From positions 13,898-77,897 of the IMG/VR virus record IMGVR_UViG_3300032007_000065: a DNA stretch of 64,000 nt. The stretch is one strand, 5' to 3'. The notes under the pieces are model-generated. The model was not told the origin of the DNA, did no database searches, and saw only the letters and a program-made list of their open reading frames with translations. This stretch comes from a virus (taxonomy: Duplodnaviria > Caudoviricetes). Of the stretch, positions 46,086 to 62,581 are shown piece by piece; the first letter of the stretch is position 1, and each line of letters starts with the position of its first letter. The position numbers and the translations under genes were made by a program.

Positions 46086-48104
46086 TTAGATGACGTCGGC
46101 CAACACCGGTACGAACAACGGATCCAGATGGGACGGCGCCGATGCCTGGTAGAGCGCAGTCGACGTCAGAGCCTTCTTCAGCCACCCAGAGCTCAACCGA
46201 ATCATCGGACTCGGGTTCTTGCTGAGGCTCGTCGTCAGTCTCAAGATGACGTAGTCCTCATGGTCTCCGTTCGGACCGAAGTCCGGCTGCTCCAGTTCAT
46301 TGTCGCGCTTTCGCAGCAGCGCTCTAGCCACCATCTCCAGATGGACCAGATTGTAGTTGATGCCTGCATCCATCATGATCTCGGCGTACTTCTGGCAGAA
46401 GCCGTCGATGTCATAGAGATAGCCCATGTGGTCCTTGCTGTCGAGAATCTGAGTAATTTGCTGAATCGACTGGGACACCGCCTTCGACTTGATCTCGATG
46501 TTGAACAGCACCGGGCTCTCGTCGTCGTCGGCATAGTCATCGAGAATGTCCAGCGGAATGGGACGATCCCGATACTGCTTCCAGATCGCAGTCATGGTCT
46601 TGGAGAAGTAGAGTTTGAAGCCGTGCTCCTCCTGGACATGGGCCTTCAGCTCCCCGTTATAGTCGATAAGATTGAATTCTTCGATGTAGTAGGCGTCGCC
46701 GTCCTCCGTCTCTTCGGTATGGACCTCGCCAAGCAAAATCATCAGAGAATCTTCAACCGAATCGGAAACCGTCACTTCGGTGGCGGTGATGTCGAAGCTC
46801 TTGTAGAACTCTTCGGCAAATGTAATTTCGTCAGAGTGTGTTTCCTGAAAATGTTTCTGTTTTAGAACCAGCTGACCGGTGGGCTCCGAGACAACCGTGG
46901 CAGCGAACGATCCCGGGCTGAAGAGATCCATATTGATGTCAAAGAGTTTCTCACCATAGCAGGCTCTGCAGACGCCGTCCTTCGATGTGCAGGTACAGGG
47001 AGAACGGAATCCGATGCGCTTGCCGATGAGCTGTGTGTCTTTGAATCCGTCGAGAATTTTCTCCTGACCCTCCTCATCGTAGTAGGTTCTACCGTCGAGC
47101 AGTTTCAGGAAAATCTCGTCCTTGATGTTGTAGTAGATGGGTCGAGTCGAGTTACAGACCTCGCGGTCTTTCCTCAGCACGACCGACGTCGCGTTGTTGT
47201 TCATCTTCTTCGACAGGGCACCGGGCTTCGACATAGACAGTTTCATGTCCATGAGAGCCTTTCGTCCGCCGGCGGCACCGGTGTAGAATCCAGCCGGGGT
47301 GTCGATACCGGTGATCAGCAGGTTGCTGCCGATGAACCAGGGAATCGTTCTCGAGCTGATGTCCGCCTTGTAGCCGACGTGGAGGAAGATCTCCTTGACC
47401 TGAGCCGGTGTCAGGTTCTTGCCGGACTTGATGAGTGGCTTCAGGTCGGAGTCGCTGTTTCCGAACGCCTTGATGAGTCGCGTCGTCATGTCGTTCAGAT
47501 CGTCTTCGATCTCTTTCGCCTGACGCGTCGAGTCAAAGTCGCTGTACATGAGGTCGTGAATCTCGGGGTTTGCCTTTTCGGCCTGCATGATGTCCCAGAT
47601 GGACGCCGAGTAGCCGAAGATGAGGCAGAAGGTGTCGGAAATGGCTCTGATGTGGAAGATGATTTCGTCAATAATGGCATTGAGCGTGTGGAAGTCACCG
47701 TCGTAAGCAGGAATGATCTGGTTGTCGATGATGTCGCCAATGTCCTGGACGGACTTGTCCCTCCAGTCGATGACGCGGCTCTCGTCCAACAGATCGGTCC
47801 TCTCCATCTTCATGTAGGCGTACCAGATGACCATGTTCGACAGGAAGTGGCGACACTGCAGGGTGTAGATCGTCGCGTTCTTCTGGTCGAGGTCCGACTG
47901 GTGGAAGACAAAGTTGATCGGAAACTCGCGGACCTCCTTGTACTCGAGCCCGTACTTCAGGAAGTCGAGAATGTCCTGGTAGACGTACGAATAGGTGTCG
48001 TCGTCCAACAGTACATCTTCGAGCACGAGCGTCTTCGTCGAGTAGGTCTTGACGAGTTCCTTGAATGGTTTCTTCGGGTGGCCCTTGTAATCGATTGTGA
48101 TCAT
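46086..48104 (-). CDS. RNA polymerase beta-prime subunit, C-terminal part (split phage RNAP)
   Basis: Bridge-helix-like SKPGALSKKM, Zn site FRSPCTC..GVCRACYG, SEPTGQLVLKQKH trigger-loop region. Confidence 0.85.
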   Translation of the reverse strand: MITIDYKGHPKKPFKELVKTYSTKTLVLEDVLLDDDTYSYVYQDILDFLKYGLEYKEVREFPINFVFHQSDLDQKNATIYTLQCRHFLSNMVIWYAYMKMERTDLLDESRVIDWRDKSVQDIGDIIDNQIIPAYDGDFHTLNAIIDEIIFHIRAISDTFCLIFGYSASIWDIMQAEKANPEIHDLMYSDFDSTRQAKEIEDDLNDMTTRLIKAFGNSDSDLKPLIKSGKNLTPAQVKEIFLHVGYKADISSRTIPWFIGSNLLITGIDTPAGFYTGAAGGRKALMDMKLSMSKPGALSKKMNNNATSVVLRKDREVCNSTRPIYYNIKDEIFLKLLDGRTYYDEEGQEKILDGFKDTQLIGKRIGFRSPCTCTSKDGVCRACYGEKLFDINMDLFSPGSFAATVVSEPTGQLVLKQKHFQETHSDEITFAEEFYKSFDITATEVTVSDSVEDSLMILLGEVHTEETEDGDAYYIEEFNLIDYNGELKAHVQEEHGFKLYFSKTMTAIWKQYRDRPIPLDILDDYADDDESPVLFNIEIKSKAVSQSIQQITQILDSKDHMGYLYDIDGFCQKYAEIMMDAGINYNLVHLEMVARALLRKRDNELEQPDFGPNGDHEDYVILRLTTSLSKNPSPMIRLSSGWLKKALTSTALYQASAPSHLDPLFVPVLADVI

Positions 48105-48220: not shown

Positions 48221-50407
48221 TCAGTGGGCCTCACCGGAATCGGTTCTGCCGATCGTCGTGGTGTAGTCGGGAGTGTGGTGCTGGTATCCGGTGCCGGTCG
48301 ACTGGACCTCGGGTTCGATTGTTTGCAGTTCCCCGGTGATCCAGTTCTTGAACGGCTCGGCGATCTGTCGCATGAGACGGACAGCCAGGTCGTCCGGATG
48401 GGCGATGGCGTACTGCTCGACGGCATTGAAGATCGTCGACACCTGCTGGGTGGTGCCTCTGGCGTTGATGGCCTCCTGCTGACGAATGGCGGCAGCCTTG
48501 TCGTAGGCGCGGCTCACCGACAGGTACTGGTCCGACGTCAGGATCATGCCGAGAATCGACACGATGCCCTGGAGAATCTCGACGTCGGTGGCGACGGAGT
48601 TGCAGACGCTCGGGATGCGTCCGGTGCAACCCTCTTCCTTGACGATGTCGTAGCCAGTCCAGTAGCCGCGGTCCATGTAGTTCAGGATGACGGCCAGGAA
48701 CGGTTCCGACTCGTAGTCACTATAGTTGACAATGTGTAGACCGTCGGTCGTGTAGACGGGGCAGCGCCACATGGCCTTCTTGGAGTTCAGGATGCCGAGG
48801 GTGGTTCTCCAGAAGGCATTGTGGAAGACGCCGGCGACACTGCGCAGCATCCTTTGGTGTTCCGTCGTGTCGCCTTGGACGGTGAGCTCACCCATGACGT
48901 GGTGCATGGCCACGAGTGTGCCGAGGTTCATGCCGGCGACGACACCGGACTCGTAGGCGGAGCGACAGGCCCGGATGACGTCGTCGACGACGTCCATGTT
49001 GCAGGCGCGCTCCAGGTCGGAGACACCGCCGACGTGGATGACGCCAATGGTGCCGCGGAGCCGGTTGAGACGTTGAGACGCCTCCAGATAGTCCTTCATG
49101 AGGTCGGTGGGGCTCGATGCCGCCTTCTTCTTGGCGTCGTCGTAGTCCTTCTGGCACTGCTCCAGCAGAGCATTGTAGCGGACCCGATCCGTCGCATCGT
49201 CTTCGAGGTTGATGAACTTGCGACCGATGGTGACGTTGACAACCTCGCCGACGCAGGACTGCATCAGCTGCTGGGCCGTCGTGAACTGGTACTCGTCGAG
49301 TTTCGCAGCCGGGTCATTGATCTGCTCGTCGGCAGCCGCCGATGCGTTGTGGCGCAGCACCGTGAAGAGACGCACCTTGGTGGCATCGGTGATCGGCGTG
49401 TTGGCGATGACGGAGAAGTCGTGGAGAGCGTTGCGGGCGGCACTCCTCGTCAGTTCCGGCACCTGGAGAATCAGCATGCCCGGAATGGTGTTCGGGTACT
49501 TCTTCAGATGCTCGTTGACGGTGAGAGCGATCTGGCTCGAAATCAGATCATCGTAGTACGGCGCCATGATGATAATGGGCCGCCCGTTCTGGTTGGCGTA
49601 CTGGAGAATCGCCGAGATGAGCTCGCCGTGCTTCTGGTAGGTGACGTTGTGGTCGAAGATGACCATCATGTGCGGGTTGCCGTTGGAGCTGTAGTAGCCT
49701 TCGGCGGTGTTGCGGTAGCGCTCCGCCATGAGGAGAGAGGCGTCGATGCGGAAGCCGTTCTGGACCTCATGGGTGTAGCCAGTCTGGCCGCCGTCGCGAT
49801 CGACCATGATGTTCGGCTGACCGGTCTTCTTGTAGATGTCCTGGACAGCTCTGGCCAGTTCCTCATTGCCGTTCGACGACACGTATGCGACGTTGTAGAT
49901 GTCTTCGTAGGTCGGGTCTTCGTCGTCAGGATTCGGCACGACGTCGACGGCCATCTTCTGGAGCTCTTCGATGATGCGGTCGCGGACCTCCTGGAGGGAT
50001 CGGACGATGTCGGCCTGACGGGCGTTGCGGAGAACCGCGTCGCCTTCGAGAGCCTTCGTCAGCTCCTCCATGAAGTTGTCGGCAGTGACCATGGCAGTGG
50101 TGGTGCCGTCGCCTACTTTGTCGACAATGCGGAACGAGATGTTCTTCAGCATCGTGAAGATGGACTTGTGGGTCGGATCCTGGAACTCGAGACGGTTCAA
50201 CACCGTCCAACCGTCCTTGGTCGGATAGGTGAAGTGACCGTCATCGATGATGGTGGTGTGGGCGTAGGGACCGAGCGTCTTCGACACCACCTGGGCGGCG
50301 ATGTGCGAGATGGCCTTGATGGTCTCGTTGAACTCGTCGTGGTCGACGAGGTTCATGCCCATGCGGATTTGCTTCTCGAGATCGAAGATTTCGTTCTTGT
50401 CACTCAT
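48221..50407 (-). CDS. groEL: phage GroEL-like chaperonin (728 aa)
   Basis: VSKTLGP, TKDGWTVL, VGDGTTTA ATP-binding motif, IHVGG, GVVAG. Confidence 0.9.
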   Translation of the reverse strand: MSDKNEIFDLEKQIRMGMNLVDHDEFNETIKAISHIAAQVVSKTLGPYAHTTIIDDGHFTYPTKDGWTVLNRLEFQDPTHKSIFTMLKNISFRIVDKVGDGTTTAMVTADNFMEELTKALEGDAVLRNARQADIVRSLQEVRDRIIEELQKMAVDVVPNPDDEDPTYEDIYNVAYVSSNGNEELARAVQDIYKKTGQPNIMVDRDGGQTGYTHEVQNGFRIDASLLMAERYRNTAEGYYSSNGNPHMMVIFDHNVTYQKHGELISAILQYANQNGRPIIIMAPYYDDLISSQIALTVNEHLKKYPNTIPGMLILQVPELTRSAARNALHDFSVIANTPITDATKVRLFTVLRHNASAAADEQINDPAAKLDEYQFTTAQQLMQSCVGEVVNVTIGRKFINLEDDATDRVRYNALLEQCQKDYDDAKKKAASSPTDLMKDYLEASQRLNRLRGTIGVIHVGGVSDLERACNMDVVDDVIRACRSAYESGVVAGMNLGTLVAMHHVMGELTVQGDTTEHQRMLRSVAGVFHNAFWRTTLGILNSKKAMWRCPVYTTDGLHIVNYSDYESEPFLAVILNYMDRGYWTGYDIVKEEGCTGRIPSVCNSVATDVEILQGIVSILGMILTSDQYLSVSRAYDKAAAIRQQEAINARGTTQQVSTIFNAVEQYAIAHPDDLAVRLMRQIAEPFKNWITGELQTIEPEVQSTGTGYQHHTPDYTTTIGRTDSGEAH

Positions 50408-51225
50408 GGTTTCGAATCAGTCCTTTCGTTGGTGATGGGATCAATGGGTGTGAAGTACGGGTACATGTGGGCGACGACGCAGATGCGCTGCTCCTGGAGT
50501 TTCCGGAAGACGTCGTCGCCGACGTGGATGAAGTGACTCATCTGATTCTCCTTCGCCGGCAGAAGGTTGCCATAGCCTTCGACAACGACAATGTACTTGC
50601 CGACGAGACAGTCCCTGTTTCGTTCGACGACCTCTAGAACGTCGTCGCTGTTCGACAGGAACGCCGTCGTGATGTCGGGCAGTTCGAGAAGGACGTCCTT
50701 CGGGTCGTTCTCGAGACAGACGATCTTCTTGTCGACGGTGTCGGCTCCGAAGAGTGCCACCAGGTAGCTCTTCATTTCGTCGGTGAACTTCGGAGCCGTG
50801 ATGTAGATGTGCTTCACGAAGTCCTGGAGAGACAGCTGATGGAGAACCACTTCGAGTCTTGTGGTGTGGAGATAGTTCAGATGGAGCGGATACAGATACG
50901 TTTCGGCGTACTGTTTCAGCAGATCCTCCGACAGTTGTTTGTCGTTGTCCTTCAGCATCATGCGAAGGAACTCCCAGTGACGGTTGTACATGGACGACAT
51001 GGCGTAGCGGACGTCCTTCGACATCTTGACGAAGTCGTCGAGTGCCGGAAACAGCTTCGGAAGGAACGGCTCCGTCCTGGCAGCCGCCGCCAGATTGTGG
51101 AGGATCGACATGTTGGTGTTTTTGAGACAGCGATGGAATTCGACGAGGATGTACTCGTCGCGGTTGTCGGTGCCAATTGGCCGCAGCAGATCCGACGATA
51201 TGTCGGCTCTGTAGTCGTCCGGCAT
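50404..51225 (-). CDS. hypothetical protein
   Basis: 273 aa, overlaps the groEL start. Confidence 0.75.
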   Translation of the reverse strand: MPDDYRADISSDLLRPIGTDNRDEYILVEFHRCLKNTNMSILHNLAAAARTEPFLPKLFPALDDFVKMSKDVRYAMSSMYNRHWEFLRMMLKDNDKQLSEDLLKQYAETYLYPLHLNYLHTTRLEVVLHQLSLQDFVKHIYITAPKFTDEMKSYLVALFGADTVDKKIVCLENDPKDVLLELPDITTAFLSNSDDVLEVVERNRDCLVGKYIVVVEGYGNLLPAKENQMSHFIHVGDDVFRKLQEQRICVVAHMYPYFTPIDPITNERTDSKP

Positions 51226-51295: not shown

Positions 51296-52306
51296 TTAGG
51301 ATGCCATCAGTTCATCGAGCGACGTCAGCGGTTGAACCGGCGTCGTGGAACCGTGGCCGACCTGGGACTCGTTGACCTTGACGTCCTGCAACTGAACGCT
51401 GCCGATGGTCGGCGTCGACGGCCTGGTCAGGGCTGCGACTTCAGCGTTTGCAGGGAGATCAAAAGGGCTGTTTTCTCCGGCTCCGGTGAAGTTGTCGGAG
51501 ACGAACTGCTGGATGTTGGCCGGAGGCGCAGCGTAGCCGGGCGCAGTGGCGCCGCCGAACTGGCCGCCGCCGAATCCGCCGCCGTAGCCACCTCCGTAGC
51601 CGCCGTAGCCGCTGTCGGGACCGGAGCCACGGAACGAACCGAACTGCATGGCGTTGACGTTGAGCTTCTGGGCGATGCCACGGACATAGGATGCCGTCAT
51701 GTCGGTGATCCATGCGGAGGCGCGCTTGTTGCCGTGGCCGGCAGCTGCTGTCATGGCCTCACTGAAGCTGCGCAATGCTTCGACGACGACGAAGAGCTGG
51801 CCCTCGGCCGGGAAGACGGTGTAGGATCCGGTGTTCGGATTGTACTCGTCGATCATGGCGGTCTGCTCGAACATGAAGCTGTACTGCTCGGAGCAGACCT
51901 TGTCGGCAGCGGTGTTCATGAAGATGGTGAAGACCGCACGACCGCCGACGTAGGAGAAGCCGGCCAGATTGGTGCCCTCGCGATTCAGAGGCACGACGAC
52001 GTGGCCAATGTGATCCTTACCGGCTTCGATGTCCGGGAGGATCTTCTTCATGAAGCCGTCGTAGAGGGCGCGAGCCAGATGGGCCTTGAACGACGCCGTA
52101 TGGCCGAGCTCACGCGGCCAACGCGGACGCCCACCGTTCGGGTCCTGGACTCTGGGGATGATGGTCAGGAACATGGAGTCCCCGGCAAAGCCGATACGCA
52201 GCATGGTGCTGTCGGCAGAAAAGACGGCGAGGCCGCTCGTGTTGACTTCGTTGCCACGGGTGGAGGTGCCACCTGCAACGACGCCTTGCATACCAAATTC
52301 GGGCAT
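51296..52306 (-). CDS. hypothetical protein with Gly-rich low-complexity linker (possible ssDNA-binding protein)
   Basis: GAAAGGAG SD; beta-rich N-terminal domain, GGYGGGYGGGFGGGQFGG tract, short C-terminal LDELM motif. The SSB role is a guess. Confidence 0.6.
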   Translation of the reverse strand: MPEFGMQGVVAGGTSTRGNEVNTSGLAVFSADSTMLRIGFAGDSMFLTIIPRVQDPNGGRPRWPRELGHTASFKAHLARALYDGFMKKILPDIEAGKDHIGHVVVPLNREGTNLAGFSYVGGRAVFTIFMNTAADKVCSEQYSFMFEQTAMIDEYNPNTGSYTVFPAEGQLFVVVEALRSFSEAMTAAAGHGNKRASAWITDMTASYVRGIAQKLNVNAMQFGSFRGSGPDSGYGGYGGGYGGGFGGGQFGGATAPGYAAPPANIQQFVSDNFTGAGENSPFDLPANAEVAALTRPSTPTIGSVQLQDVKVNESQVGHGSTTPVQPLTSLDELMAS

Positions 52307-52423
52307 GGTATTGTGCTCCTTTCTAAAATCGATTAGTGCGGTTGTTAATGGTGTGAGATGCTTTCAAACGAACCGACTGACTGGAGGTACAACACCATGA
52401 GATGCGGTTGTGTTTTTCTACGC

Positions 52424-52458
52424 AAAAAGAAAGGAGTCCGGAGACTCTTTTCTCTTTC
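52424..52458 (-). terminator. terminator closing the pentamer array
   Basis: Minus strand AAAGAGTCTCCGGACTCCTTT followed by CTTTTT. Confidence 0.7.
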
Positions 52459-52599
52459 TCTCGACCGAAGTCGAGGCCATTGGGATGACAGGCATAGGGA
52501 TCGAAATGCGTCTCATTCCGACGTCATCGCCATGATGCTGCCCGACCTGGTAGTGGAGCACTATTCCACTACTCCACGAAACAGTGGAACGCTTTTCCA

Positions 52600-55500
52600 T
52601 CGGTTCGTGAAACTGTCCACTGGATTGCCCCGCCCAAGCTATGTGCAGCTATGCCCAACTTTGCCGACGCTGAACTTCACTGCACGGGACATTACCAATG
52701 CGGAATATAACCGCACAGGACTTTGCCGGTGTGGAGCTTAACTACACAGGGCTCTACTAACACGGACTCGTGTCGAAGTTTGGCCTGACACTGTTAAACC
52801 TTCCTTCGCCTCACCATCACTTCGCATTCCGAACATGACATACCTGTGCCGCAGCGAGACGATAACTCGCAAAACGTCTCTGGACTATGTCCAGCCGCCG
52901 CTTTGGCTCTGCTAGACTTCCTTCACCGCTGCTTCGGTTTCCGAACATTCATTCGCGCCATGTAATGTCATTGCCTAGCAATGCAATGCCATGACGAGAC
53001 GATGACGTGCGCAGCTCGTCTGGACTATGTCCCACCATCGCATTGGCTTTCGAGCAGGCATTGGAATGACATGCTATGCATCGCCGCAACAAGATCTGGC
53101 TTCTATAACGTGAATATGTCCTGCCGCAACGAGACTAAGCCGTTTATGACGTCACTACGTACTGCCACAACGAGACTAAACCCCGTATAATTCGACTGGA
53201 CTGTGCCATTGCGCGACTACACCAAGCTATGCCATTGCGCTACTGCACCTAGCCTGACGTTAATAAGGCTATGCCGTGGCAATACGGTGATGTGCTTGAC
53301 TCATCCGAACTGTGCCATTCCGCTACAGTCCACGCCTGACGTTAATATACCATACCGCAACGAGACTAAGATTGCTATGCCGTCAATAAGCCAAGCCTGA
53401 CGCTGATAGGCCATGCCTCAACGAAACTAAGTATGCTATACATATCCATGACGATTCAGGGTAATTCATTTCATTTCGCAGCCGGTGATTCGCAGTTCTG
53501 GACGATCCGTAATAGACAATGCCGTTACGTAGTCAGACGTTGCCCACAGCAGTATGCAATTCCTCGTATAGCCTGGACAATTCATTTCAATTCGTAGCCG
53601 GTGATTCGCTGTTCCAGACGATCCTTTGCCTGAACTTAAGAATGCTTTTCCACCCCCAAACTTCGCTAAGTAAAACTCGGCAATGGGACACCGTTACGTC
53701 GTACACTGTGTCTCAGATTGCCATTGCGTTGATTCGCTACAGGTTCCTTCGCAGTTCCGTTGGTTCGCCACACATTCTTCACCATGGCGTAGCATTCTTC
53801 ACAATCGACACCATAGTTTGCCATCGCATTTGTGACGAGATGTAGCGTGTCTGAGATATGGGCCGCCGAGACATTGCGTTGCCTAATTTAACTCTGACCA
53901 GCATCGGACTACTTTCTTCGCCAAAACTTGGCAATACCGAACACTGCCATGACCCCAGATGGCTATGATGTGCTTCACTCTTCCGTCACCTCGCTGGACG
54001 ATGATATGCTTTGCCTTTCCATGGCCATACTCGGTATAGTAGTACATTGCCATGGCCCCACGCGACGATGATGTGCTTCTCCATGACAGAACTTGATTCA
54101 ACTACACGTTTCAATGCCATTGAGTAACTGAGGTATGCGTTGAGCCGCTTCACATTGCCATTGGGTAACTTAGGTGTACACTGGGTCACTATGGCTCGCC
54201 ATTGAGTAACTGAGGTATGCATTGGGCCGCTTCACCTCGTCATTGGGTAACTTAGATGACTTGGACGCGCACTAAGTCACTTTAGTCTGTCATCGCCGCA
54301 TTACACAATGACTCACTTTAGTCTGCCATCGCCGCATTACACAATGACTCACCTTTGCCATAGAATGGTACGCTATGACTCGCCATTGCCATACTTCATG
54401 AGACCTTACCTTGCCATTACTCGACTAGACGGGAATGAAAACCAGACGCTATCATGTATTGCGGTTCCGCTACGGAACGAAACCTCATCGCACCTGGACT
54501 AACGAAGACAGGCCCTCACGAGATGTTGAGCCGTGTAACCAAACAGCGCCAAAACTCTGTCCCATATGACTGAACATCGGTCAACCAAAACATTGCTGCA
54601 TTGCTCAGGACACATCAGTGCCTAAACGAAATGGCACCGCGAGTAACTCTAGCCTACCTATACCAAATGGCACTGCGGCTGACTCTAGCCTACCCATACG
54701 ACATGACGCATTGAATTACTCTAGCCTACCCTGCCCAATACGACACGACACATTGAATTACTTTAGCATACCTTGCCTATACGTTACAGTATGGCGCAGC
54801 AAGTGACTTTAGCCTGCCCTTACGACATGGCACATCGAATAACTTAAGCATGCCTTGCCTATACGAAACTGCACAGCGAGCGACCTCAGCCTACCGTTAC
54901 GGCACTCGATGGCGCCTCGCCTCACCTCACCGTTGTGTCACTATGCAAATCCAGACTCTGCCATTACAATATAGCACATCGTCTGGCTTCACTTCGCCGT
55001 TGTGTTACGCCACTTGGTCTCGTTGCGCTTCACCATTGCTTACACATTGCGAGTCCTTACTTTGCCCCGCCGTTGCTCTACCGCGCAAGTCCTTGCCTTA
55101 CCATTACAACACGCCACTCGAGTATGCCCGACCAGGTTTTACCATAGCAACAGTCGACGATGTCTGACCGCACTTACCTCACCTATGCAGCACTAAACAA
55201 TGGCCCGCCTCGCCCAGCCGACACACAGGACCGGATCACGCGAATGAGCAAAACTTTGCTCTGCCTCAACAGTACTGGACATTGAGTTGCCCTGCCACAG
55301 CATCGTTGCACTGGGCAATGATTAACCTTACTTTGCCAATACACCGAACTGCTTAACCCAGCGTCACAGCACTAAGCCATTGACTAGCCTAGCATCGCCG
55401 ATGCACTGTCATTCTGCACATAGCCATTAGGATACACGGCGTTAACTGGAAGCACCATTCCTAACTCTTCCATTGTCTGACTTTGAAATACAAAACGCTC

Positions 55501-56319
55501 GACATAGAGAGTTTCACTATGTGATGCCGCAGCCTCACGAGGCTAGACGTTATTGGACCATCCCTCGCCGATACTAGAGGCGACGTTACAAAGCGATGCC
55601 TCTCACTTCAGATAGCCTCACGTTCTGCGCTTGTCCATAACGCAACTTCGAATTGAGCTTCCGTACATGACCATACCGTTACCCTGGTTGACTCAGCTAA
55701 TCCGAAACTTCACTTCACTTTTCCAGAAAGGGCATAGCTATTCCGTCACCGTAAATGACTCACAAGACCGCACTCCACTCTTCCAGACTTAGCCGAAGCA
55801 TAGAATAGATTGGCCCCGTTTCACTTCGCCAATACTGCATCTTTCATGACCATACCTTCACCGCATACAACTAAGCCCACAGCAGCGACTCGCTTTCCCG
55901 GCAGCGCATATCGACACCGGTGCTGCACGAAGCGCCATTTTACGCAGTAATGCGTCGCTATTCCCATGCCGAAGAAGATCCAGGCCGTAGATAGCCAACA
56001 CAGCTCGCCGGAGCGTAATACTGGACTTTAGCCGAAGCAGCTCTGGGTCATACCATAGATAGCCATCACATTGGCACACAAATGCTGAGCCATAGATAGC
56101 CACCACAGGTTAGCATTGTACATCGTTAGACCGTAGACAGCCACCGCAGACCAGCATGGTACTATACATCACTGAGCCGTAGATAGCCGCAGCGAATCAG
56201 CATAGGACACAGTTAGGCCGTAGATAACCGATACGTCCAAAAGCAAAGCACCACAATGCCGTTGATAGCCAACGCTTAGCGACGTACGACGCATCAATGA
56301 CTTACGATGCCAGCGCGTT
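52600..56319 (-). repeat. non-coding array of 5-nt-phased units (NRY-NN pentamers; units mostly 5n+1 nt), putative guide-RNA array (VIPR-like)
   Basis: No credible CDS over ~3.7 kb. Example minus-strand units: GGC AA AGT CC TGT GC GGT TA TAT TC CGC AT T / GGT AA TGT CC CGT GC AGT GA AGT TC AGC GT C / GGC AA AGT TG GGC AT AGC TG CAC AT AGC TT G (52727-52635). Boundary spacings of 31, 36, 41 and 46 nt recur. Confidence 0.85.
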
Positions 56320-56482
56320 CTGGACCTGACGGTCCAGGACCAAGCATCCCTTTCTTTACCGATACTTAGGGCTTACTGCCGCCCGAGACTTCGGGAGAGC
56401 GGCTGCCTATTGCTACGGATTCAAACGAAGCTCGTTGACCATCCAAGGTCAATTTACGGGACGGATCTAAGGCCCCGTATCG
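56320..56482 (-). ncRNA. structured leader of the array (four hairpins)
   Basis: Inverted repeats at 56320-56337, 56378-56403, 56435-56452 and 56455-56479. Confidence 0.55.
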
Positions 56483-56511
56483 AAAAAGAAAGGAACCCGA
56501 AGGTTCCTTTC
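56483..56511 (-). terminator. terminator downstream of the RAMP gene
   Basis: GAAAGGAACC-TTCG-GGTTCCTTTC followed by TTTTT; same hairpin at 57897-57927. Confidence 0.8.
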
Positions 56512-56588
56512 ATAAAGCCTGCGCCCGGGACCGCCGTAGGAGAGACGGCCCCAGACGCTGGAAGGCGAAGAGCTGGAAGTGAGTGAAA

Positions 56589-57638
56589 TCACTCCTCGCC
56601 CTCTGCTTTCTTCTTGGGGCGACCGCGCTTCTTCGGCGCTTCAGTGGCTCCGTCGTCGGAGTCGTCGGCCTTCTTGGCGCCCTTCGCCTTCTTCTCGGCG
56701 GCCGCTGCCTTCTTGGGTGCGAAGCTGTCGAAGGCGTCGCCGAACTTGGTGATGTCGGGCACAATCTTATTGATTCTGCCGATGATCTCCTTGTCGGTGG
56801 CCGTCAGCTGATCCTCTTCGAGATCGTCGTAGGGGACGCCGTCGCGGTTGCACAATGTCCACTCAAGTGTGCCCTTGCCGCCGCCTCTCCATTGTAACAT
56901 GCCCATCCACTCTTTGTAGTCGAGCGTCTCGATGCATGCTTTGAGAGAATTCTCGTTGAGCAGGCGGATGCCGAAGTAGAATTCCGTGCCAGCCGGCACG
57001 ATCTCCGATGTTGCCAGAGCGGTGCGCGGGCCCTTGGCGGTATCGGCACGGAGCGGGCGGGACAGCGTCCGCAGGTTGCCATGGTCATCGTAACTGGTGA
57101 TCTCTTCTCCCATCATGTTGGTGAAGGTCTCGGGGATAAAGAGTGGGATTTTGCGATTTGTCACGAACCAGGTTCCGTCAACCACCTTTTTGTGGGCGGT
57201 GATGCTGCTCGCTGCATATGTACCACCCTTGGCGGTGTCGGCGCGGTTCAGCATGCCGATGGACTCCTTGAAGGAGCCGCGCCACTGATAGTCATAGAGG
57301 AACGGCAGGTTGACGATGTTGCAGCCTTCGGGCACGACGTCGACTTCGGGGTCATAGTACTTGCCGTCGTCGGTGACGGCGAAGACCGCACGCGGGAAGA
57401 TGGTCATCTGGATGTCTTCGAGCTCCTGGTCGTTGCCGATGGCAGTATTGACGGCCAGCTCGTTTGCTTTGGCCTCCTCTTCAATGCCGAGGGGATCGGG
57501 GTTCTTGGATGCGATGAACTCCCTGTGGATGTCGGGGTTGTTGGGCTGCGTGCCCAACATCATGTTGGTGGTGCGGCATCTGACGTAGAAGAGCAGGCCG
57601 CTGCTGATAAGGGACTTTCTCTGTGAACTCCAACTCAT
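56589..57638 (-). CDS. stand-alone Cas7/RAMP-like protein (Vipr-like) with C-terminal AT-hook
   Basis: N-terminal strand plus MMLGTQP, YDYQWRGSFKE, LSRPLRADTAKGPRTALATSEIVPAGTEFYFGIRLL, G-rich loop GMLQWRGGGKG; tail KKRGRPKK; GAGGT SD before ATG 57638. Confidence 0.8.
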   Translation of the reverse strand: MSWSSQRKSLISSGLLFYVRCRTTNMMLGTQPNNPDIHREFIASKNPDPLGIEEEAKANELAVNTAIGNDQELEDIQMTIFPRAVFAVTDDGKYYDPEVDVVPEGCNIVNLPFLYDYQWRGSFKESIGMLNRADTAKGGTYAASSITAHKKVVDGTWFVTNRKIPLFIPETFTNMMGEEITSYDDHGNLRTLSRPLRADTAKGPRTALATSEIVPAGTEFYFGIRLLNENSLKACIETLDYKEWMGMLQWRGGGKGTLEWTLCNRDGVPYDDLEEDQLTATDKEIIGRINKIVPDITKFGDAFDSFAPKKAAAAEKKAKGAKKADDSDDGATEAPKKRGRPKKKAEGEE

Positions 57639-57713
57639 TTCATGTACCTCACTTTTTAAATTTTTTCGACTCCGGTGACGCATCGAGCTCCCACACGTCA
57701 CTTTCATCACCGA

Positions 57714-57742
57714 AATGATATACGGATGAAAATCGAGTTCGC
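57714..57742 (-). promoter_or_regulatory. class A promoter of the RAMP gene
   Basis: GCGAACTCGATTTTCATCCGTATATCATT; shares CTCGATTTT.ATCC..ATAT.ATT with the 41-bp promoter at 16736. Confidence 0.6.
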
Positions 57743-57896
57743 GTTTAGAAATCTACGCGAAAACTGCGAATTCCGTGTTTCCATGTGGGCAAGGTGCACG
57801 CTGGAGTCCAGTCGTCCGACGTCGATTTTCTGGCCGAAGCCTTCTCGGAACATCGGAAACTGCCGGTGCTGGAGAGACCGAATCTTGAGCCGAGCC

Positions 57897-57927
57897 AAAA
57901 AGAAAGGAACCCGAAGGTTCCTTTCTT
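57897..57927 (-). terminator. terminator after the DNA polymerase gene
   Basis: Same hairpin as 56483-56511. Confidence 0.8.
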
Positions 57928-57933
57928 GTGTTT

Positions 57934-59925
57934 TCAGAGATCGACGACGTTCGTCAGATACTCCTTCGAAGAGCTCGGGCGCTGGATCTTGAGGCCGAGA
58001 CTCTCCATAATCGGATTGATCATCTTGATGGTCGAGTTGATAATGCGATCGGTGTCCATGAAGTCGACGAGCCAGTCGGGCATCGGAATCTCAGTGTTCT
58101 TCGGTTTGGCGACGACCGTCAGGTTCATGGCTGCGATTTTCGGATTTCGATTCGAGAAGATCTCCTTGTCGATCCTGGCATAAACCTCGGGCCAGTGCTC
58201 CTGGAGATAGGCGCGGCCACGCTGAGACGACATGGATCGAATCGGAATGATGTCGACGTCGGAAGGCAGCTCGATGGCGTACTGGGGTTCGATGGCATTC
58301 CAGAGCATGACGCCGCGGATGCCATTGATGCGCAGAGGATCAGCGTAGTGCTCAGGGGCACTGATGTTGGCCTGACGATAGTACGTCGACTCGCCTGCCA
58401 GCATGGACCGCTTCAGCTCCTTCTTCAGCCAGTTGACTTTTCGGAGAATGGTGCGAAGGTCGATGATCTCGGGTTTCAGGATCTCTTCGAGACAGAGGTC
58501 CTTGTAGTACTCGCGGACCGACTCCTTCGTCACTGACTTGATGAAGTCCATGCCCTTGACTTCGATGATGCCGTCTCCGTCGTTCAGCAGTTTGCCCTCC
58601 TGAATGATCTGAAGGTCGACGTAGCGCTTCTTGACGTCACCGAAGAGGATACGGCCGAAGTAGAATTCGTTCTTCATCGACAGGAACTCGACCCAGTTCT
58701 CAGCGACGTTGAAGTCTCTGGCCAGCATCTTGAGGTTTCGATCGACGACGATGGTCAGGAAGATGGTGATGACGTTGGCGGCCACGAAGGTGAACTCACG
58801 CTCGTCGATGGGATAGTTGTCGTTGAATACTTCGTGTTTGATCTGGTTCACCCAACGGGCCAGCGACACAAAGTTCGAGTCGGTGTCGATGTAGAGGACA
58901 CCGGCTCTGGACTCATAGGCCATCTTGCGCACCGAATCGTAGATCGGGTGATTGTAGAAGACGAAGGTGTCGTAGAATCTCCAGAGGTCCATGATCTCGT
59001 CACGGATGTCTTCGTCTTCGATCTTGTTGATGTCCGGCAGATGGAGCTCCGGAATGCCACTGAAGATCTTGTGGAGCTTCTGCTGGATGACGGCGAGTCG
59101 ATTGAACTCCATGAAGTTATTCTTATAATAGAGCATCAGCAGAACCGGCTCCGGCAGATGCTCCAGAATCTCTTTGGTGTTCGTGATGACCGTCAACGGC
59201 ATCGGGAACTTACACTTCTTAACAATTCGGTCGTAGACCTCGTCGGGTCTCTTGGTGACGCCGAGGATGCTGAAGTCAAGATGGCTCCACTTCTCGTTGT
59301 ACTCCTCGACGATGCAGTCGATGTACTCGTAGAGCTCGCTGGCGGTGCAGATGCAGCAGTTGTCGCAGAGGAAGTTCTCGAAACCGCAGGCCGCCGTCGA
59401 GATGATGACTCGGCCGAGACGGGTGACGGCTTCGGCGTGGAAGATGTTGTGGAGGATGAACTTCGCGTAGCCGAGAACGCCGTAGAGGGAGTTGAGGCGG
59501 ATCTTCAGGTTATTCTGGCGGTTGTTCAGCATGTCCCACATGCGCCGATTGTGCTCGTCGCCGACTCGGTCGTAGGTGTCACGTTCCTTCTTGGCAGCCT
59601 TTCTGCCTTTCTGTCCGGCGATGATGAAGTCGCGCATCGGATTCGGCATGTTGTCATGGGGCACGAAGAGGGTATTGGCGCCACCGACGACGAGCTTCTC
59701 CTTGTCGATCATGTCGGTGATGCTCAGAGCGTCGGCACTGACGACCTGGCGCCGTGTGTTATTGATAAGATAGACCTGTGGATTCTTCAGTTCCTTCTCG
59801 GCCATCTTGTCGAGAAGGCGTTCCACTTTCTTCAGATTGATGCTGTCGCCGAAGCGGTACTGGACGATTCGCAGTACGAAATCCTTCCACTTTCGGACGA
59901 TTGCAGCTTCTTTTCCATTGGCCAT
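57934..59925 (-). CDS. family B DNA polymerase, subunit carrying motifs B and C (split jumbo-phage type)
   Basis: LKIRLNSLYG (KxxxNSxYG), YIDTDS, MKNEFYF, EVKGMDFIKS; no motif A or exonuclease motifs seen. Confidence 0.88.
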   Translation of the reverse strand: MANGKEAAIVRKWKDFVLRIVQYRFGDSINLKKVERLLDKMAEKELKNPQVYLINNTRRQVVSADALSITDMIDKEKLVVGGANTLFVPHDNMPNPMRDFIIAGQKGRKAAKKERDTYDRVGDEHNRRMWDMLNNRQNNLKIRLNSLYGVLGYAKFILHNIFHAEAVTRLGRVIISTAACGFENFLCDNCCICTASELYEYIDCIVEEYNEKWSHLDFSILGVTKRPDEVYDRIVKKCKFPMPLTVITNTKEILEHLPEPVLLMLYYKNNFMEFNRLAVIQQKLHKIFSGIPELHLPDINKIEDEDIRDEIMDLWRFYDTFVFYNHPIYDSVRKMAYESRAGVLYIDTDSNFVSLARWVNQIKHEVFNDNYPIDEREFTFVAANVITIFLTIVVDRNLKMLARDFNVAENWVEFLSMKNEFYFGRILFGDVKKRYVDLQIIQEGKLLNDGDGIIEVKGMDFIKSVTKESVREYYKDLCLEEILKPEIIDLRTILRKVNWLKKELKRSMLAGESTYYRQANISAPEHYADPLRINGIRGVMLWNAIEPQYAIELPSDVDIIPIRSMSSQRGRAYLQEHWPEVYARIDKEIFSNRNPKIAAMNLTVVAKPKNTEIPMPDWLVDFMDTDRIINSTIKMINPIMESLGLKIQRPSSSKEYLTNVVDL

Positions 59926-61175: not shown

Positions 61176-61649
61176 TCAGAGCCCTTCGACGAAGCTGTCG
61201 ACGAGGACGCAGTTTTCGACATCCTTCAGCAGCTTGTCGGTCTCGGGTCGATGGAACGAACTCAGAGCCTCTTCAGCCGAAGAGACGACGGGTCGATTGC
61301 CCGGAGGCTGCCAGTGGACGTCTCCGATTCTTATGACGATCTTGGCTCGATCCGTCGGTACCATGAAGGTTCGCATGCTGCGACGTCGTTCCTTCAGTTC
61401 CAGCAGCTCGTTGAGGACGACGTAGCGGCAGTGGTCCGTCAGACCGTAACTGTAGGCCAGCACCCACCGTTTGTCGCGGAGCACTGCAAAGACGTTCGAC
61501 ATGAGAATGTACGGGTTCAACAGCGGCTCCTCACGGCAGTAGTCGACAGCCTCGCGGAGACTGATGTCCCGAAGGAATTCGACGGGTACCTTCTGGTAGT
61601 AGAATCTCGACACAACGGGACTGTCGAAGTTCAGCAGCTCGATTCCCAT
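61176..61649 (-). CDS. hypothetical protein
   Basis: Coupled to the thyA stop (TGATG overlap). Confidence 0.7.
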   Translation of the reverse strand: MGIELLNFDSPVVSRFYYQKVPVEFLRDISLREAVDYCREEPLLNPYILMSNVFAVLRDKRWVLAYSYGLTDHCRYVVLNELLELKERRRSMRTFMVPTDRAKIVIRIGDVHWQPPGNRPVVSSAEEALSSFHRPETDKLLKDVENCVLVDSFVEGL

Positions 61650-62581
61650 CAGACGGCGACCTCAATGTCTTCATTGAATTCGTCGTACTGATAGTTCTCG
61701 ACAATCATGTCATTGGGCGTGAAGTGATAGAAGTCAGGAGCTGCATCCGGAATGTAAACGATCGGAGCAGCAAACTGATTCGGGTTTGATTTGGCCTTGG
61801 CGATCATGTCACGGACGATGTCCTCGTGACGGTCGTAGATGTGACAGTCGTAGCGGATGTGGACGAGACGGCCCGGCTCCATGCCGACCTCTCGGGCCAC
61901 CAGCATCAGCAGGAAGGCATATTGGACGGTGTTCCAGTTCGATGCCGTCAGCATGTCCTGACTCCGCTGCATCAGCACCGCATTCAGCAGAAGACGCCCG
62001 GTCTTTTCCTCCTGGGTGACATTATAGTACATGCCATAGGCGCAGGGTCTGAGACCCATGTCGGCCAGATCGGACATGTTGTACGTCGACGTCATGATGG
62101 ACCGAGACATGGGTGAATTCCGCAGGTCGTAGAAGACGGCATCCATCTGGTCCAGATAGACCCAGCCGTCCTTGGCGTATGCCGACGGATACATCGACAG
62201 GTCTTCGTCCTTGATTCTGTGGTGCTTGGCGGCCTGGGCAATCTGGTAGCCGTAGGCCTTACCAATGGTGCCGTCGCCGACATTCCAGTCGTCCCAGATC
62301 TTCGACTGGAGATCGGCGATGACGTTCGATTTCTGACGATAGATCCAGAGGATCTCCTGAAGTGCAGTCTTCCAGTAGGTTCTCCTCAGGGTCATCATGG
62401 GGAACTCGTAGTTCGGATCCTTCGGATCGAGCACGTAGTCGTGCCGGTCACAGAAGATCTTACGGGTGTGGGCAGGGGTGCCGTCGTGCCAGTGGGGACG
62501 AACCGGCATACCCTTGTCCGAGAACGGCGAATTCAGAATGGCTTCGGCGCTCTCAATGAAACATTTGTCTGCGTAGGTCAT
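61649..62581 (-). CDS. thyA: thymidylate synthase
   Basis: EILWI, IWDDW, GKAYGYQ, LRPCAY (catalytic Cys), QRSQD, WNTVQY, HIYDRH. Confidence 0.95.
   Translation of the reverse strand: MTYADKCFIESAEAILNSPFSDKGMPVRPHWHDGTPAHTRKIFCDRHDYVLDPKDPNYEFPMMTLRRTYWKTALQEILWIYRQKSNVIADLQSKIWDDWNVGDGTIGKAYGYQIAQAAKHHRIKDEDLSMYPSAYAKDGWVYLDQMDAVFYDLRNSPMSRSIMTSTYNMSDLADMGLRPCAYGMYYNVTQEEKTGRLLLNAVLMQRSQDMLTASNWNTVQYAFLLMLVAREVGMEPGRLVHIRYDCHIYDRHEDIVRDMIAKAKSNPNQFAAPIVYIPDAAPDFYHFTPNDMIVENYQYDEFNEDIEVAV

What the first reader, a model, noticed from the sequence alone, without database searches (positions are those of the whole stretch)
52424..57742. Stand-alone Cas7/RAMP-like gene with a ~3.7 kb pentamer-phased non-coding array: candidate phage RNA-guided system (VIPR-like, divergent)
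Seen: one minus-strand locus runs promoter (57742-57714), RAMP-like gene (57638-56589; RPLRA..GPRTALATSE..PAGT.F motif and G-rich loop GMLQWRGGGKG), terminator, hairpin leader, about 3.7 kb of ORF-free sequence with strong 5-nt phasing, then a terminator (52458-52424). This is by far the largest non-coding stretch in a densely coding window. No cas1/cas2, cas3, cas5, cas6 or nuclease is nearby. Known: Cas7/RAMP proteins polymerise along guide RNAs with a fixed nucleotide footprint. From memory, recently reported phage VIPR systems pair a RAMP-like protein with RNAs of alternating GGY/NN blocks that read DNA through a gapped code; I cannot verify that here. Inference: this is a minimal RNA-guided DNA-binding or silencing system in a jumbo phage, probably aimed at competing phages or host genes, with an unusually large guide repertoire and a looser code than GGY.
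Basis: partly seen in the sequence, partly recalled or inferred. Interest (0 to 1): 0.97.

Follow-up and report, generated by a model that had tools for sequence, protein, structure and literature searches.

The report
Jumbo-phage VIPR system with giant guide array
A large phage carries a Cas7-like protein gene followed by a 3.8 kb array of about 100 short five-base-phased RNA guide units; this is a divergent, greatly enlarged version of the VIPR RNA-guided DNA-silencing systems first described in 2026.

Summary
Window 56369-52539 (minus strand) is about 3.8 kb of ORF-free sequence with strong 5-nt phasing. It lies between terminators, downstream of a 349-aa gene (57638-56589).

The protein has no Pfam, PHROG or PADLOC hit, but its model (pLDDT 83.6) matches Cas7-type RAMPs (Csm3 Z 11.3). 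Its profile aligns end to end with the SUSP1 Vipr family (hhalign probability 57%) and shares the G-loop motif G-x-G-[QD]-W-R.

The pentamer is nGY/NN, the published "YNNNG" alternative. It is grouped into units of 5n+1 nt that start with GGY. This fits the published "staggered" vrRNA arrays.

Gene and array stay together in 8 jumbo-phage relatives and in 48 of 49 smaller IMG/VR phage loci. The array is hypervariable while its flanks are 78-80% identical.

So this is a VIPR system, published in 2026, and not a new class. Three features are absent from the VIPR text I could read:
- arrays of 1.1-5.2 kb at a fixed core-genome position;
- a covarying 56-nt two-hairpin element at the head of every (sub)array;
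- a double-size Vipr with PKKRGR(K/P)KK AT-hook tails and no conserved vap gene.

Targets were not found. Other first-stage notes on this same stretch had already recorded the 5n+1 grammar, the leader and the AT-hook.

The parts
57900..57927 (-). Intrinsic terminator after the DNA polymerase gene. Its hairpin has the same sequence as the one after the vipr-like gene, so the gene sits between twin terminators.
   Evidence: One search shows the sequence. One search found the same inverted repeat (reported there on the + strand).
56589..57638 (-). vipr-like gene, 349 aa: a Cas7/RAMP fold with G-loop GMLQWRGGGKG (residues 246-256) and a long beta-hairpin (residues 191-214) carrying invariant R194, R197, G203 and R205.
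56607..56636 (-). C-terminal AT-hook-like motif PKKRGRPKKK (residues 335-344) inside a Lys/Ala/Asp-rich disordered tail.
   Evidence: One or two PKKRGR(K/P)KK-type copies (some degenerate) occur in most of P0002-P0032 and are absent from the shorter clades.
56488..56511 (-). Intrinsic terminator between the gene and the array.
56428..56482 (-). Array-head structured element: hairpin 1 (8 bp, loop CUnnGAUCC), linker, hairpin 2 (5-6 bp, loop UUGGAU). There is a single copy in the window.
   Evidence: All 13 pairs covary; the covariation score is 0.845 against 0.279 in shuffles (0 of 500 as high).
52539..56369 (-). Pentamer array: 690 in-frame nGY/NN pentamers in 115 in-frame runs. 71 runs begin with a GG at a +1 register shift, followed by C/T in 86%. 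Unit lengths are mostly 26, 31, 36, 41 or 46 nt.
52434..52447 (-). Intrinsic terminator closing the array.

Best explanation
This is a VIPR (Viral Interference Programmable Repeat) system of a jumbo phage distantly related to AR9/PBS1.

Shown here:
- a Cas7-fold protein with the Vipr-type G-loop;
- a same-strand 3.8 kb array of nGY/NN pentamers between terminators;
- units of 5n+1 nt headed by GGY;
- linkage of gene and array across distant relatives;
- a hypervariable array between conserved flanks;
- a covarying structured RNA element at the head of the array.

Inferred by homology with the characterised SUSP1 system: the array is transcribed, and one protein protomer binds each pentamer. 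The G-loop Trp-Arg (W250/R251) and the thumb arginines would hold the G and the pyrimidine, leaving the next two bases free to pair with double-stranded DNA in a gapped register, about one codon per pentamer. The bound gene would then be silenced.

My own inferences:
- The extra G at each GGY shifts the register by one base. One filament would end there and the next begin, so each unit of 5-9 pentamers would act as a separate guide. That gives roughly 70-115 guides.
- This shared G matches the 1-nt overlap of the published "staggered" arrays.
- The AT-hook tail would supply the non-specific DNA affinity that separate Vap proteins give in other types.
- The head element would mark the start of transcription, processing or filament loading.

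The likely targets are genes of competing mobile elements or of the host.
For: Fold:
- The AlphaFold2 model has pLDDT 83.6.
- Every Foldseek hit shown is a Cas7-family chain (Csf2, Csm3, type VII Cas7, gRAMP), with 87 hits at E <= 1e-3.
- VIA-align gives Z 11.3 to Csm3 over 172 residues.

Link to Vipr:
- hhalign of our family against the SUSP1 Vipr family gives 182 collinear columns, probability 57%, E 1e-4.
- GLGQWRNSGKGRF aligns with GlGDWRPRFGRF.
- In SUSP1, W178/R179 bind G2/Y3, while D177/H17 bind G1. Here D is replaced by an invariant Q, and the array has lost G1 (G at only 0.25-0.30 of that position).

Array. The 5n+1 register shows without the HMM. Lag identity is 0.336, 0.347 and 0.337 at lags 31, 36 and 41, against 0.269, 0.245 and 0.249 at lags 30, 35 and 40. 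Repeat families are spaced 26, 31, 36 and 41 nt apart.

Linkage: 8 jumbo relatives (43-82% protein identity) share the synteny polB, vipr, 1.1-5.2 kb periodic gap, GroEL. In IMG/VR, 48 of 49 loci have a periodic segment near the gene, in most starting within about 30 nt of its end.

Hypervariability: against L007 the flanks are 78-80% identical, and the 3.9 kb array gives no blastn hit.

Strand: G-U pairs in the head element and minus-strand terminators.

Guide positions: the N4N5 dinucleotide spectrum correlates with sense codon positions 1-2 (r 0.76). This fits the published wobble-skip rule.
Against: - Sequence-level homology to characterised Vipr is weak. The profile-profile probability is only 57%, and HMM-to-sequence searches find nothing.
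- No solved Vipr structure appeared among the fold-search matches, so the fold evidence is to Cas7, not to Vipr itself.
- There is no expression, processing or binding data.
- No target was found. The phage's own 77.9 kb contig shows no excess over shuffled guides under any skip rule. Three exact xNN scans of IMG/VR gave 0, 1 and 0 hits, and the single hit was out of codon register.
- Only about 55-75% of the pentamers inside a unit carry G-Y.
- The codon-like N4N5 composition comes mostly from single-base frequencies. The log-odds residual correlation is 0.39 here and 0.53 pooled.
- No conserved vap gene is present.
- The pairing rule for YNNNG-type repeats is not stated in the text I could read.
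Confidence: 0.8

Rival explanations
1. It is a Vipr-related ribonucleoprotein with a different job. The long array RNA would be coated by the AT-hook-bearing RAMP and act without discrete guides. It might be a scaffold that condenses or coats DNA, or it might read RNA rather than DNA.
For: - The arrays are 10-50 times longer than characterised vrRNAs.
- The units lack the conserved 3' tail of type II vrRNAs.
- G-Y is missing from a quarter to nearly half of the pentamers inside a unit.
- The AT-hook tails are specific to this clade.
- The locus sits at a fixed position in the replication/transcription module, unlike an accessory island.
- No targets were found.
Against: - The unit grammar (GGY head, 5-9 pentamers) is shared with small phages that carry 270-1080 nt arrays next to ordinary-size homologues.
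- The arrays are hypervariable between close relatives. That is what a guide repertoire predicts and a scaffold does not.
- The N4N5 composition resembles codon positions 1-2.
Confidence: 0.12
2. The periodic tract works as DNA, not RNA. It would be a bent or phased binding platform, for example an origin, a partition site or a packaging site, bound directly by the AT-hook protein next to the DNA polymerase gene.
For: - A period of 5 is half a helical turn.
- The tract lies next to the polymerase gene.
- The protein has an AT-hook.
Against: - The signal is strand-specific: G-Y on the gene strand, GGY unit heads and GC skew.
- The register shifts by +1 at every unit, which destroys helical phasing over distance.
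- Minus-strand terminators bracket the tract.
- The head element has G-U pairs that would be A-C mismatches on the other strand.
- The protein has an RNA-binding RAMP fold.
- The same gene-array pairing occurs in unrelated small phages.
Confidence: 0.04
3. It is decaying or selfish tandem-repeat DNA, with no function, that happens to lie beside a RAMP-like gene.
For: Local sub-families of units look like tandem duplications followed by drift.
Against: - The grammar and the gene linkage are conserved across more than 50 loci, down to 35% protein identity.
- The head element shows 13 of 13 covarying pairs.
- The tract persists at the same place in all jumbo relatives examined.
Confidence: 0.02

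Closest known systems
VIPR systems (Vipr protein + vrRNA; Escherichia phage SUSP1 type II as the characterised example; bioRxiv 10.64898/2026.04.26.720920 and .720927)
   Same: - A stand-alone RAMP protein in a phage, with no cas genes.
- A same-strand array of pentanucleotide repeats with a conserved G-pyrimidine core and variable following bases.
- The G-loop W-R motif.
- I checked the SUSP1 locus directly: the vipr candidate is L001:28474-29061 (H17, D177-W178-R179 present) and the GGT/NN array lies downstream.
   Different: - The protein is 349 aa, against 195 aa in SUSP1. It has insertions, a C-terminal helix and an AT-hook tail.
- The pentamer is nGY/NN: G1 is lost and D177 is replaced by Q.
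- There are about 100 abutting units in 3.8 kb. SUSP1 has four ~100-nt vrRNAs of 9-16 repeats, each with a 3' tail.
- The structured element sits at the 5' head of the array, not at the 3' end of each guide.
- There is no conserved vap gene.
- The host phage is a jumbo phage and the locus is at a fixed core-genome position.
"Staggered" vrRNA arrays and YNNNG/NNNNG repeat variants (same paper, fig. S18 legend and methods), and non-canonical VIPR arrays such as WGT/NN (bioRxiv 10.64898/2026.10.21.760802)
   Same: - The units abut with one shared nucleotide. The first G of each GGY also closes the last YNNNG pentamer of the preceding unit. [quoted passage not shown]
- The repeat consensus fits YNNNG.
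   Different: - I could only read the legends. The figures and tables are not held, so identity with a named type (I-VII) could not be checked.
- The paper states that staggered arrays were not confirmed by small-RNA sequencing.
- The non-canonical arrays in the October paper are described as repeating about 10 times, not hundreds of times.
Class 1 CRISPR-Cas backbone subunits (Cas7: Csm3, Cmr4, Csf2, type VII Cas7)
   Same: The best structural matches (Z 8-11) have the RRM core, G-rich loop and thumb hairpin. These proteins polymerise on a guide RNA with a fixed footprint.
   Different: - There is no repeat-spacer array.
- There are no cas1, cas2, cas5, cas6 or effector nuclease genes.
- The footprint would be 5 nt rather than 6 nt.
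- The protein has no Pfam RAMP hit.
TIGR-Tas tandem interspaced guide RNA arrays
   Same: They are phage-associated RNA guide arrays that lie outside CRISPR.
   Different: - The October 2026 paper gives an 18-nt period for TIGR arrays.
- From my own knowledge, Tas proteins carry a Nop domain.
- Neither feature is present here.

Membership tests
VIPR | Vipr protein: minimal RAMP with an RRM core, a glycine-rich loop and a thumb. | tested here: met
   The model has pLDDT 83.6. All fold matches shown from both searches down to Z 6 are CRISPR RAMP proteins, mostly Cas7. The G-loop GMLQWRGGGKG is nearly invariant across the family. The beta-hairpin 191-214 carries invariant arginines.
VIPR | Sequence homology to a characterised Vipr (the SUSP1 clade). 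| tested here: inconclusive
   hhalign of A2 against A3 gives probability 57%, E 1e-4 and 182 collinear columns with the G-loops aligned. HMM-to-sequence searches and a search against the single SUSP1 sequence are not significant.
VIPR | An adjacent pentanucleotide tandem-repeat RNA gene with a conserved GGY (or related) core alternating with variable NN. | tested here: met
   The array is nGY/NN, with G 0.71-0.74 and Y 0.89, on the gene strand. Strict YNNGG x4 runs are absent, while YNNNG runs are enriched. Relatives keep the array.
VIPR | A minimal locus without CRISPR array or cas genes, mostly in viral genomes. | tested here: met
   The phage context is supported by an AR9-like polB, GroEL and an RNA polymerase beta-prime-like protein.
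VIPR | A vipr-accessory (vap) gene in the operon (described as typical, not universal). | tested here: not met
   No conserved extra gene accompanies vipr across the relatives. A ~305-aa gene sits before it in L004 and L009, and a 97-aa gene follows it in L006. Neither is present here.
VIPR | vrRNAs are expressed, co-purify with Vipr and direct gapped (1-nt skip) binding to double-stranded DNA. | not testable with these tools
   This needs small-RNA sequencing, pull-down and binding or reporter assays.
VIPR | Natural targets can be recovered with the skip rule. | tested here: inconclusive
   No excess was found in the phage's own contig or in relatives. Three IMG/VR scans gave chance-level results. 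The host genome and co-resident elements are unknown.
CRISPR-Cas class 1 | A repeat-spacer array plus cas gene set (Cas5, Cas6, large subunit, adaptation genes). | tested here: not met
   There are no direct repeats with spacers and no cas or PADLOC hits in the neighbourhood.
Hammerhead-interspersed VIPR arrays | Hammerhead ribozymes between vrRNAs. | tested here: inconclusive
   An Rfam scan of 52000-58000 at E <= 1 found no family. A very divergent ribozyme cannot be excluded.

The most novel reading that the evidence does not exclude
The jumbo-phage clade has turned VIPR into a core-genome, library-scale silencing organ. It would comprise 70-115 or more staggered guides per phage, transcribed from (sub)arrays that are each headed by a new pseudoknot-capable RNA element, and read by a Vipr with built-in AT-hooks. 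It would be aimed at many host or competitor genes at once, as a host-takeover device and not a single-rival weapon. With G1 freed, the YNNNG repeat might use a pairing rule different from the published 1-nt skip.
Probability: 0.2. Interest if true: 0.85.

Novelty: new variant of a known kind. Interest (0 to 1): 0.6.

Why it matters
VIPR is only months old as a concept, and one type has been characterised in depth. This clade offers three things.
- It has the largest natural guide repertoires seen so far: about 100 units here and up to 5.2 kb in relatives.
- It provides a natural test of how abutting "staggered" guides are delimited, which the original paper did not confirm experimentally.
- It pairs a protein change in the G1 pocket (D to Q) with loss of G1 in the RNA, which is a direct handle on how the repeat code is read.

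The covarying head element and the fused AT-hooks are concrete and testable additions. If targets can be found in the source metagenomes, the array would show what a jumbo phage chooses to silence.

Tried and rejected
- Pfam, PHROGs, NCBIfam and PADLOC on the protein: no significant hit.
- DNA similarity of the locus to GenBank phages: none. tblastn found only four unannotated gut-phage contigs.
- PDB sequence search with the family profile: only marginal Cas7/Csm4 G-loop hits, E 0.17-0.63.
- Protein Atlas: the nearest named clusters are RAMP at 0.85, which is only a lead. The 336-aa neighbour stays unexplained.
- Rfam on the locus: nothing, so no known ribozyme or leader family.
- Target searches:
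  - 7-pentamer guides against 184 kb of the phage's own and related sequence, with 0-3 nt skips and 2 or 3 read positions, gave no perfect match and no excess over reversed guides.
  - The own contig against 15 block-shuffled nulls gave no excess.
  - IMG/VR exact xNN scans of three 9-10 pentamer units gave 0, 1 and 0 hits. The single hit has the skipped base at codon position 2, so it is a chance hit.
- Mismatch-by-phase analysis of adjacent paralogous units: only 5-7 usable pairs, too few to conclude.
- Spacing of HMM slip sites modulo 5 is true by construction, so I dropped it as evidence. I used raw lag identities and repeat spacings in its place.
- Terminators before the internal head elements of L004: not found consistently. 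I therefore make no claim that each sub-array is a separate transcription unit.
- The covariance model of the head element found no copy elsewhere in the window or in the small-phage loci searched.
- I did not run complex prediction. A filament without its RNA is a poor test.

Full report
**1. What is there**

The minus strand carries, in order:
- a terminator after the DNA polymerase gene (57927-57900);
- a 349-aa gene (57638-56589) with a GAGGT ribosome-binding site;
- a second terminator with the same hairpin sequence (56511-56488);
- a structured leader;
- about 3.8 kb without any ORF of 130 aa or more;
- a closing terminator (52447-52434).

All other gaps in the window are 454 nt or less.

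In the tract, lag-5 identity is 0.328, against 0.224-0.245 in the fourteen 4-kb windows that hold none of the array. G carries the signal. GC falls to about 0.5, and the minus strand is G-rich.

**2. Array grammar**

A cyclic 5-state HMM converged on the same solution from six starts. The pentamer is G (0.74), Y (0.89), A/G-rich, A/T-rich and G-poor, then a nearly uniform fifth position. That is nGY/NN.

There are no strict YNNGG runs of four or more units. All seven minus-strand YNNNG x5 runs in the window lie in the array.

The Viterbi parse is periodic from 56369 to 52539. It contains 690 in-frame pentamers in 115 runs. The register slips by +1 at 71 sites that read GG, followed by C/T in 86%.

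The 5n+1 unit length is visible without the HMM:
- lag identity is 0.336, 0.347 and 0.337 at lags 31, 36 and 41, against 0.269, 0.245 and 0.249 at lags 30, 35 and 40;
- repeat families are spaced 26, 31, 36 and 41 nt apart.

The first G of each GGY can be read two ways: as the closing G of the previous YNNNG pentamer, or as G1 of the next unit. This matches the legend of the published "staggered" arrays, where vrRNAs overlap by 1 nt.

**3. The protein**

Pfam, PHROGs, NCBIfam and PADLOC give nothing.

The family is large: 1,024 cluster representatives at E <= 1e-3.

The AlphaFold2 model has pLDDT 83.6. All the fold matches shown down to Z 6 are CRISPR RAMP proteins, mostly Cas7. Foldseek gives E about 1e-5 to Csf2, Csm3, type VII Cas7 and gRAMP. 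VIA-align gives Z 11.3 to Csm3.

**4. Relation to VIPR**

The VIPR papers exist and define the system. I fetched phage SUSP1 and located its locus. It has a 195-aa protein carrying H17 and D177-W178-R179, a 147-aa neighbouring gene, and GGT/NN arrays.

A profile of our family aligns end to end with a profile of the SUSP1 family: 182 columns, probability 57%, E 1e-4. The G-loops are superposed, GLGQWRNSGKGRF on GlGDWRPRFGRF. Simpler searches fail, as expected for RAMPs.

In the cryo-EM work, W178 stacks on G2, R179 holds Y3, and D177 with H17 reads G1. Here W and R are nearly invariant or invariant, D is replaced by an invariant Q, and the RNA has lost G1. That is a coherent pair of changes.

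**5. Linkage in relatives**

Eight jumbo-phage relatives were examined, from contigs of 12.7-245 kb (five of them 176-245 kb), at 43-82% protein identity. All show the order polB, vipr-like gene, periodic gap of 1.1-5.2 kb. In L004, L007, L009 and L010, as in the window, two conserved genes and then GroEL follow. The same GGY-headed 5n+1 grammar recurs.

In IMG/VR at least 562 relatives exist. Of 49 loci examined, 48 have a periodic segment near the gene, in most starting within about 30 nt of its end. These segments are 166-1,083 nt long in contigs of about 9-60 kb. Two gut-phage contigs read directly show nGC/NN units.

Kilobase arrays are therefore specific to the jumbo clade.

Against L007, the gene plus leader and the downstream genes are 78-80% identical. 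The 3.9 kb array between them gives no alignment at all.

**6. A new element**

A 56-nt motif heads every (sub)array in the jumbo clade. It occurs once here (56482-56428), five times in L004, four times in L013 and twice in L010. It occurs once each in L005, L006, L007, L008, L009 and L012.

Its anatomy is:
- hairpin 1: 8 bp, with a different stem sequence in nearly every locus, and loop CUnnGAUCC;
- a short A-rich linker (AAUC in most copies);
- hairpin 2: 5-6 bp, with loop UUGGAU.

All 13 pairs show compensatory changes. 88% of cells are paired, against 58% in shuffles. The covariation score is 0.845 against 0.279, with 0 of 500 shuffles as high, and slid controls score 0.21 or less.

The invariant loops are complementary (AUCC with GGAU), so a kissing interaction is possible. 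That is my inference. Rfam has no match. The G-U pairs place the RNA on the gene strand.

**7. Protein extras**

Most members of the closest clade carry one or two copies of PKKRGR(K/P)KK, some degenerate, in a disordered C-terminal tail. Here it is PKKRGRPKKK, residues 335-344. The shorter clades lack it, and some members carry an RGRP hook in an internal insertion.

No accessory gene is conserved next to vipr.

**8. Guide positions and targets**

The N4N5 dinucleotide spectrum correlates with sense codon positions 1-2 of the phage's genes (r 0.76 here, 0.41-0.76 in relatives). Correlations with other registers or with the antisense strand are weak or negative (-0.59 to 0.31).

Most of this comes from single-base composition. 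The residual log-odds correlation is 0.39 here and 0.53 pooled. I treat it as suggestive support for the published wobble-skip logic, no more.

No target was found in the phage's own 77.9 kb contig, in the relatives, or in three IMG/VR scans. The published work also saw no self-targeting. The host is unknown. The polymerase is 26% identical to those of AR9/PBS1-type Bacillus phages.

**9. Verdict**

This is not a new class. It is a divergent VIPR with staggered YNNNG-type units.

The text I could read does not mention jumbo phages, kilobase arrays, AT-hooks or a leader element. The figures and supplementary tables are not held, so prior listing of this clade cannot be excluded.

I rate it a new variant of a known kind, with interest 0.6.

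Noticed in passing
window 57900-57927 and 56488-56511: The vipr-like gene is bracketed by two terminators with the same hairpin sequence (GAAAGGAACCTTCGGGTTCCTTTC), as if the gene were a self-contained cassette.
   Followed up: partly
L008:128-823: In a close relative (vipr 82% identical) a formate/nitrite transporter gene (PF01226) sits between the end of polB and vipr. It is possibly a host-derived metabolic gene and might give a clue to the host.
   Followed up: no
L004:10089-13236; L013:8215-11554; L010:9469-10834: Relatives carry 2-5 copies of the array-head element, which divide their arrays into sub-arrays. The window has only one copy.
   Followed up: yes
window 46086-48104, 48221-50407, 57934-59925, 61649-62581: The neighbourhood encodes an RNA polymerase beta-prime-like protein, a GroEL-type chaperonin, a divergent family-B DNA polymerase (26% identity to AR9/PBS1) and thymidylate synthase. 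This marks an AR9-like jumbo phage known only from metagenomes.
   Followed up: partly
window 51296-52306 and 50404-51225: Two genes of unknown function (336 and 273 aa) follow the array. Genes of similar size and position occur in L004, L007, L009 and L010, always before GroEL. There is no family hit, and whether they relate to the VIPR locus is open.
   Followed up: partly
L002:4555-4900; L003:4580-5120: Gut-phage contigs with ~190-aa homologues carry short nGC/NN arrays containing runs such as GCAAG GCAAA GCAAG GCAAA GCAAC GCAGA. They share the 5n+1 grammar, so the grammar belongs to the whole protein family.
   Followed up: yes
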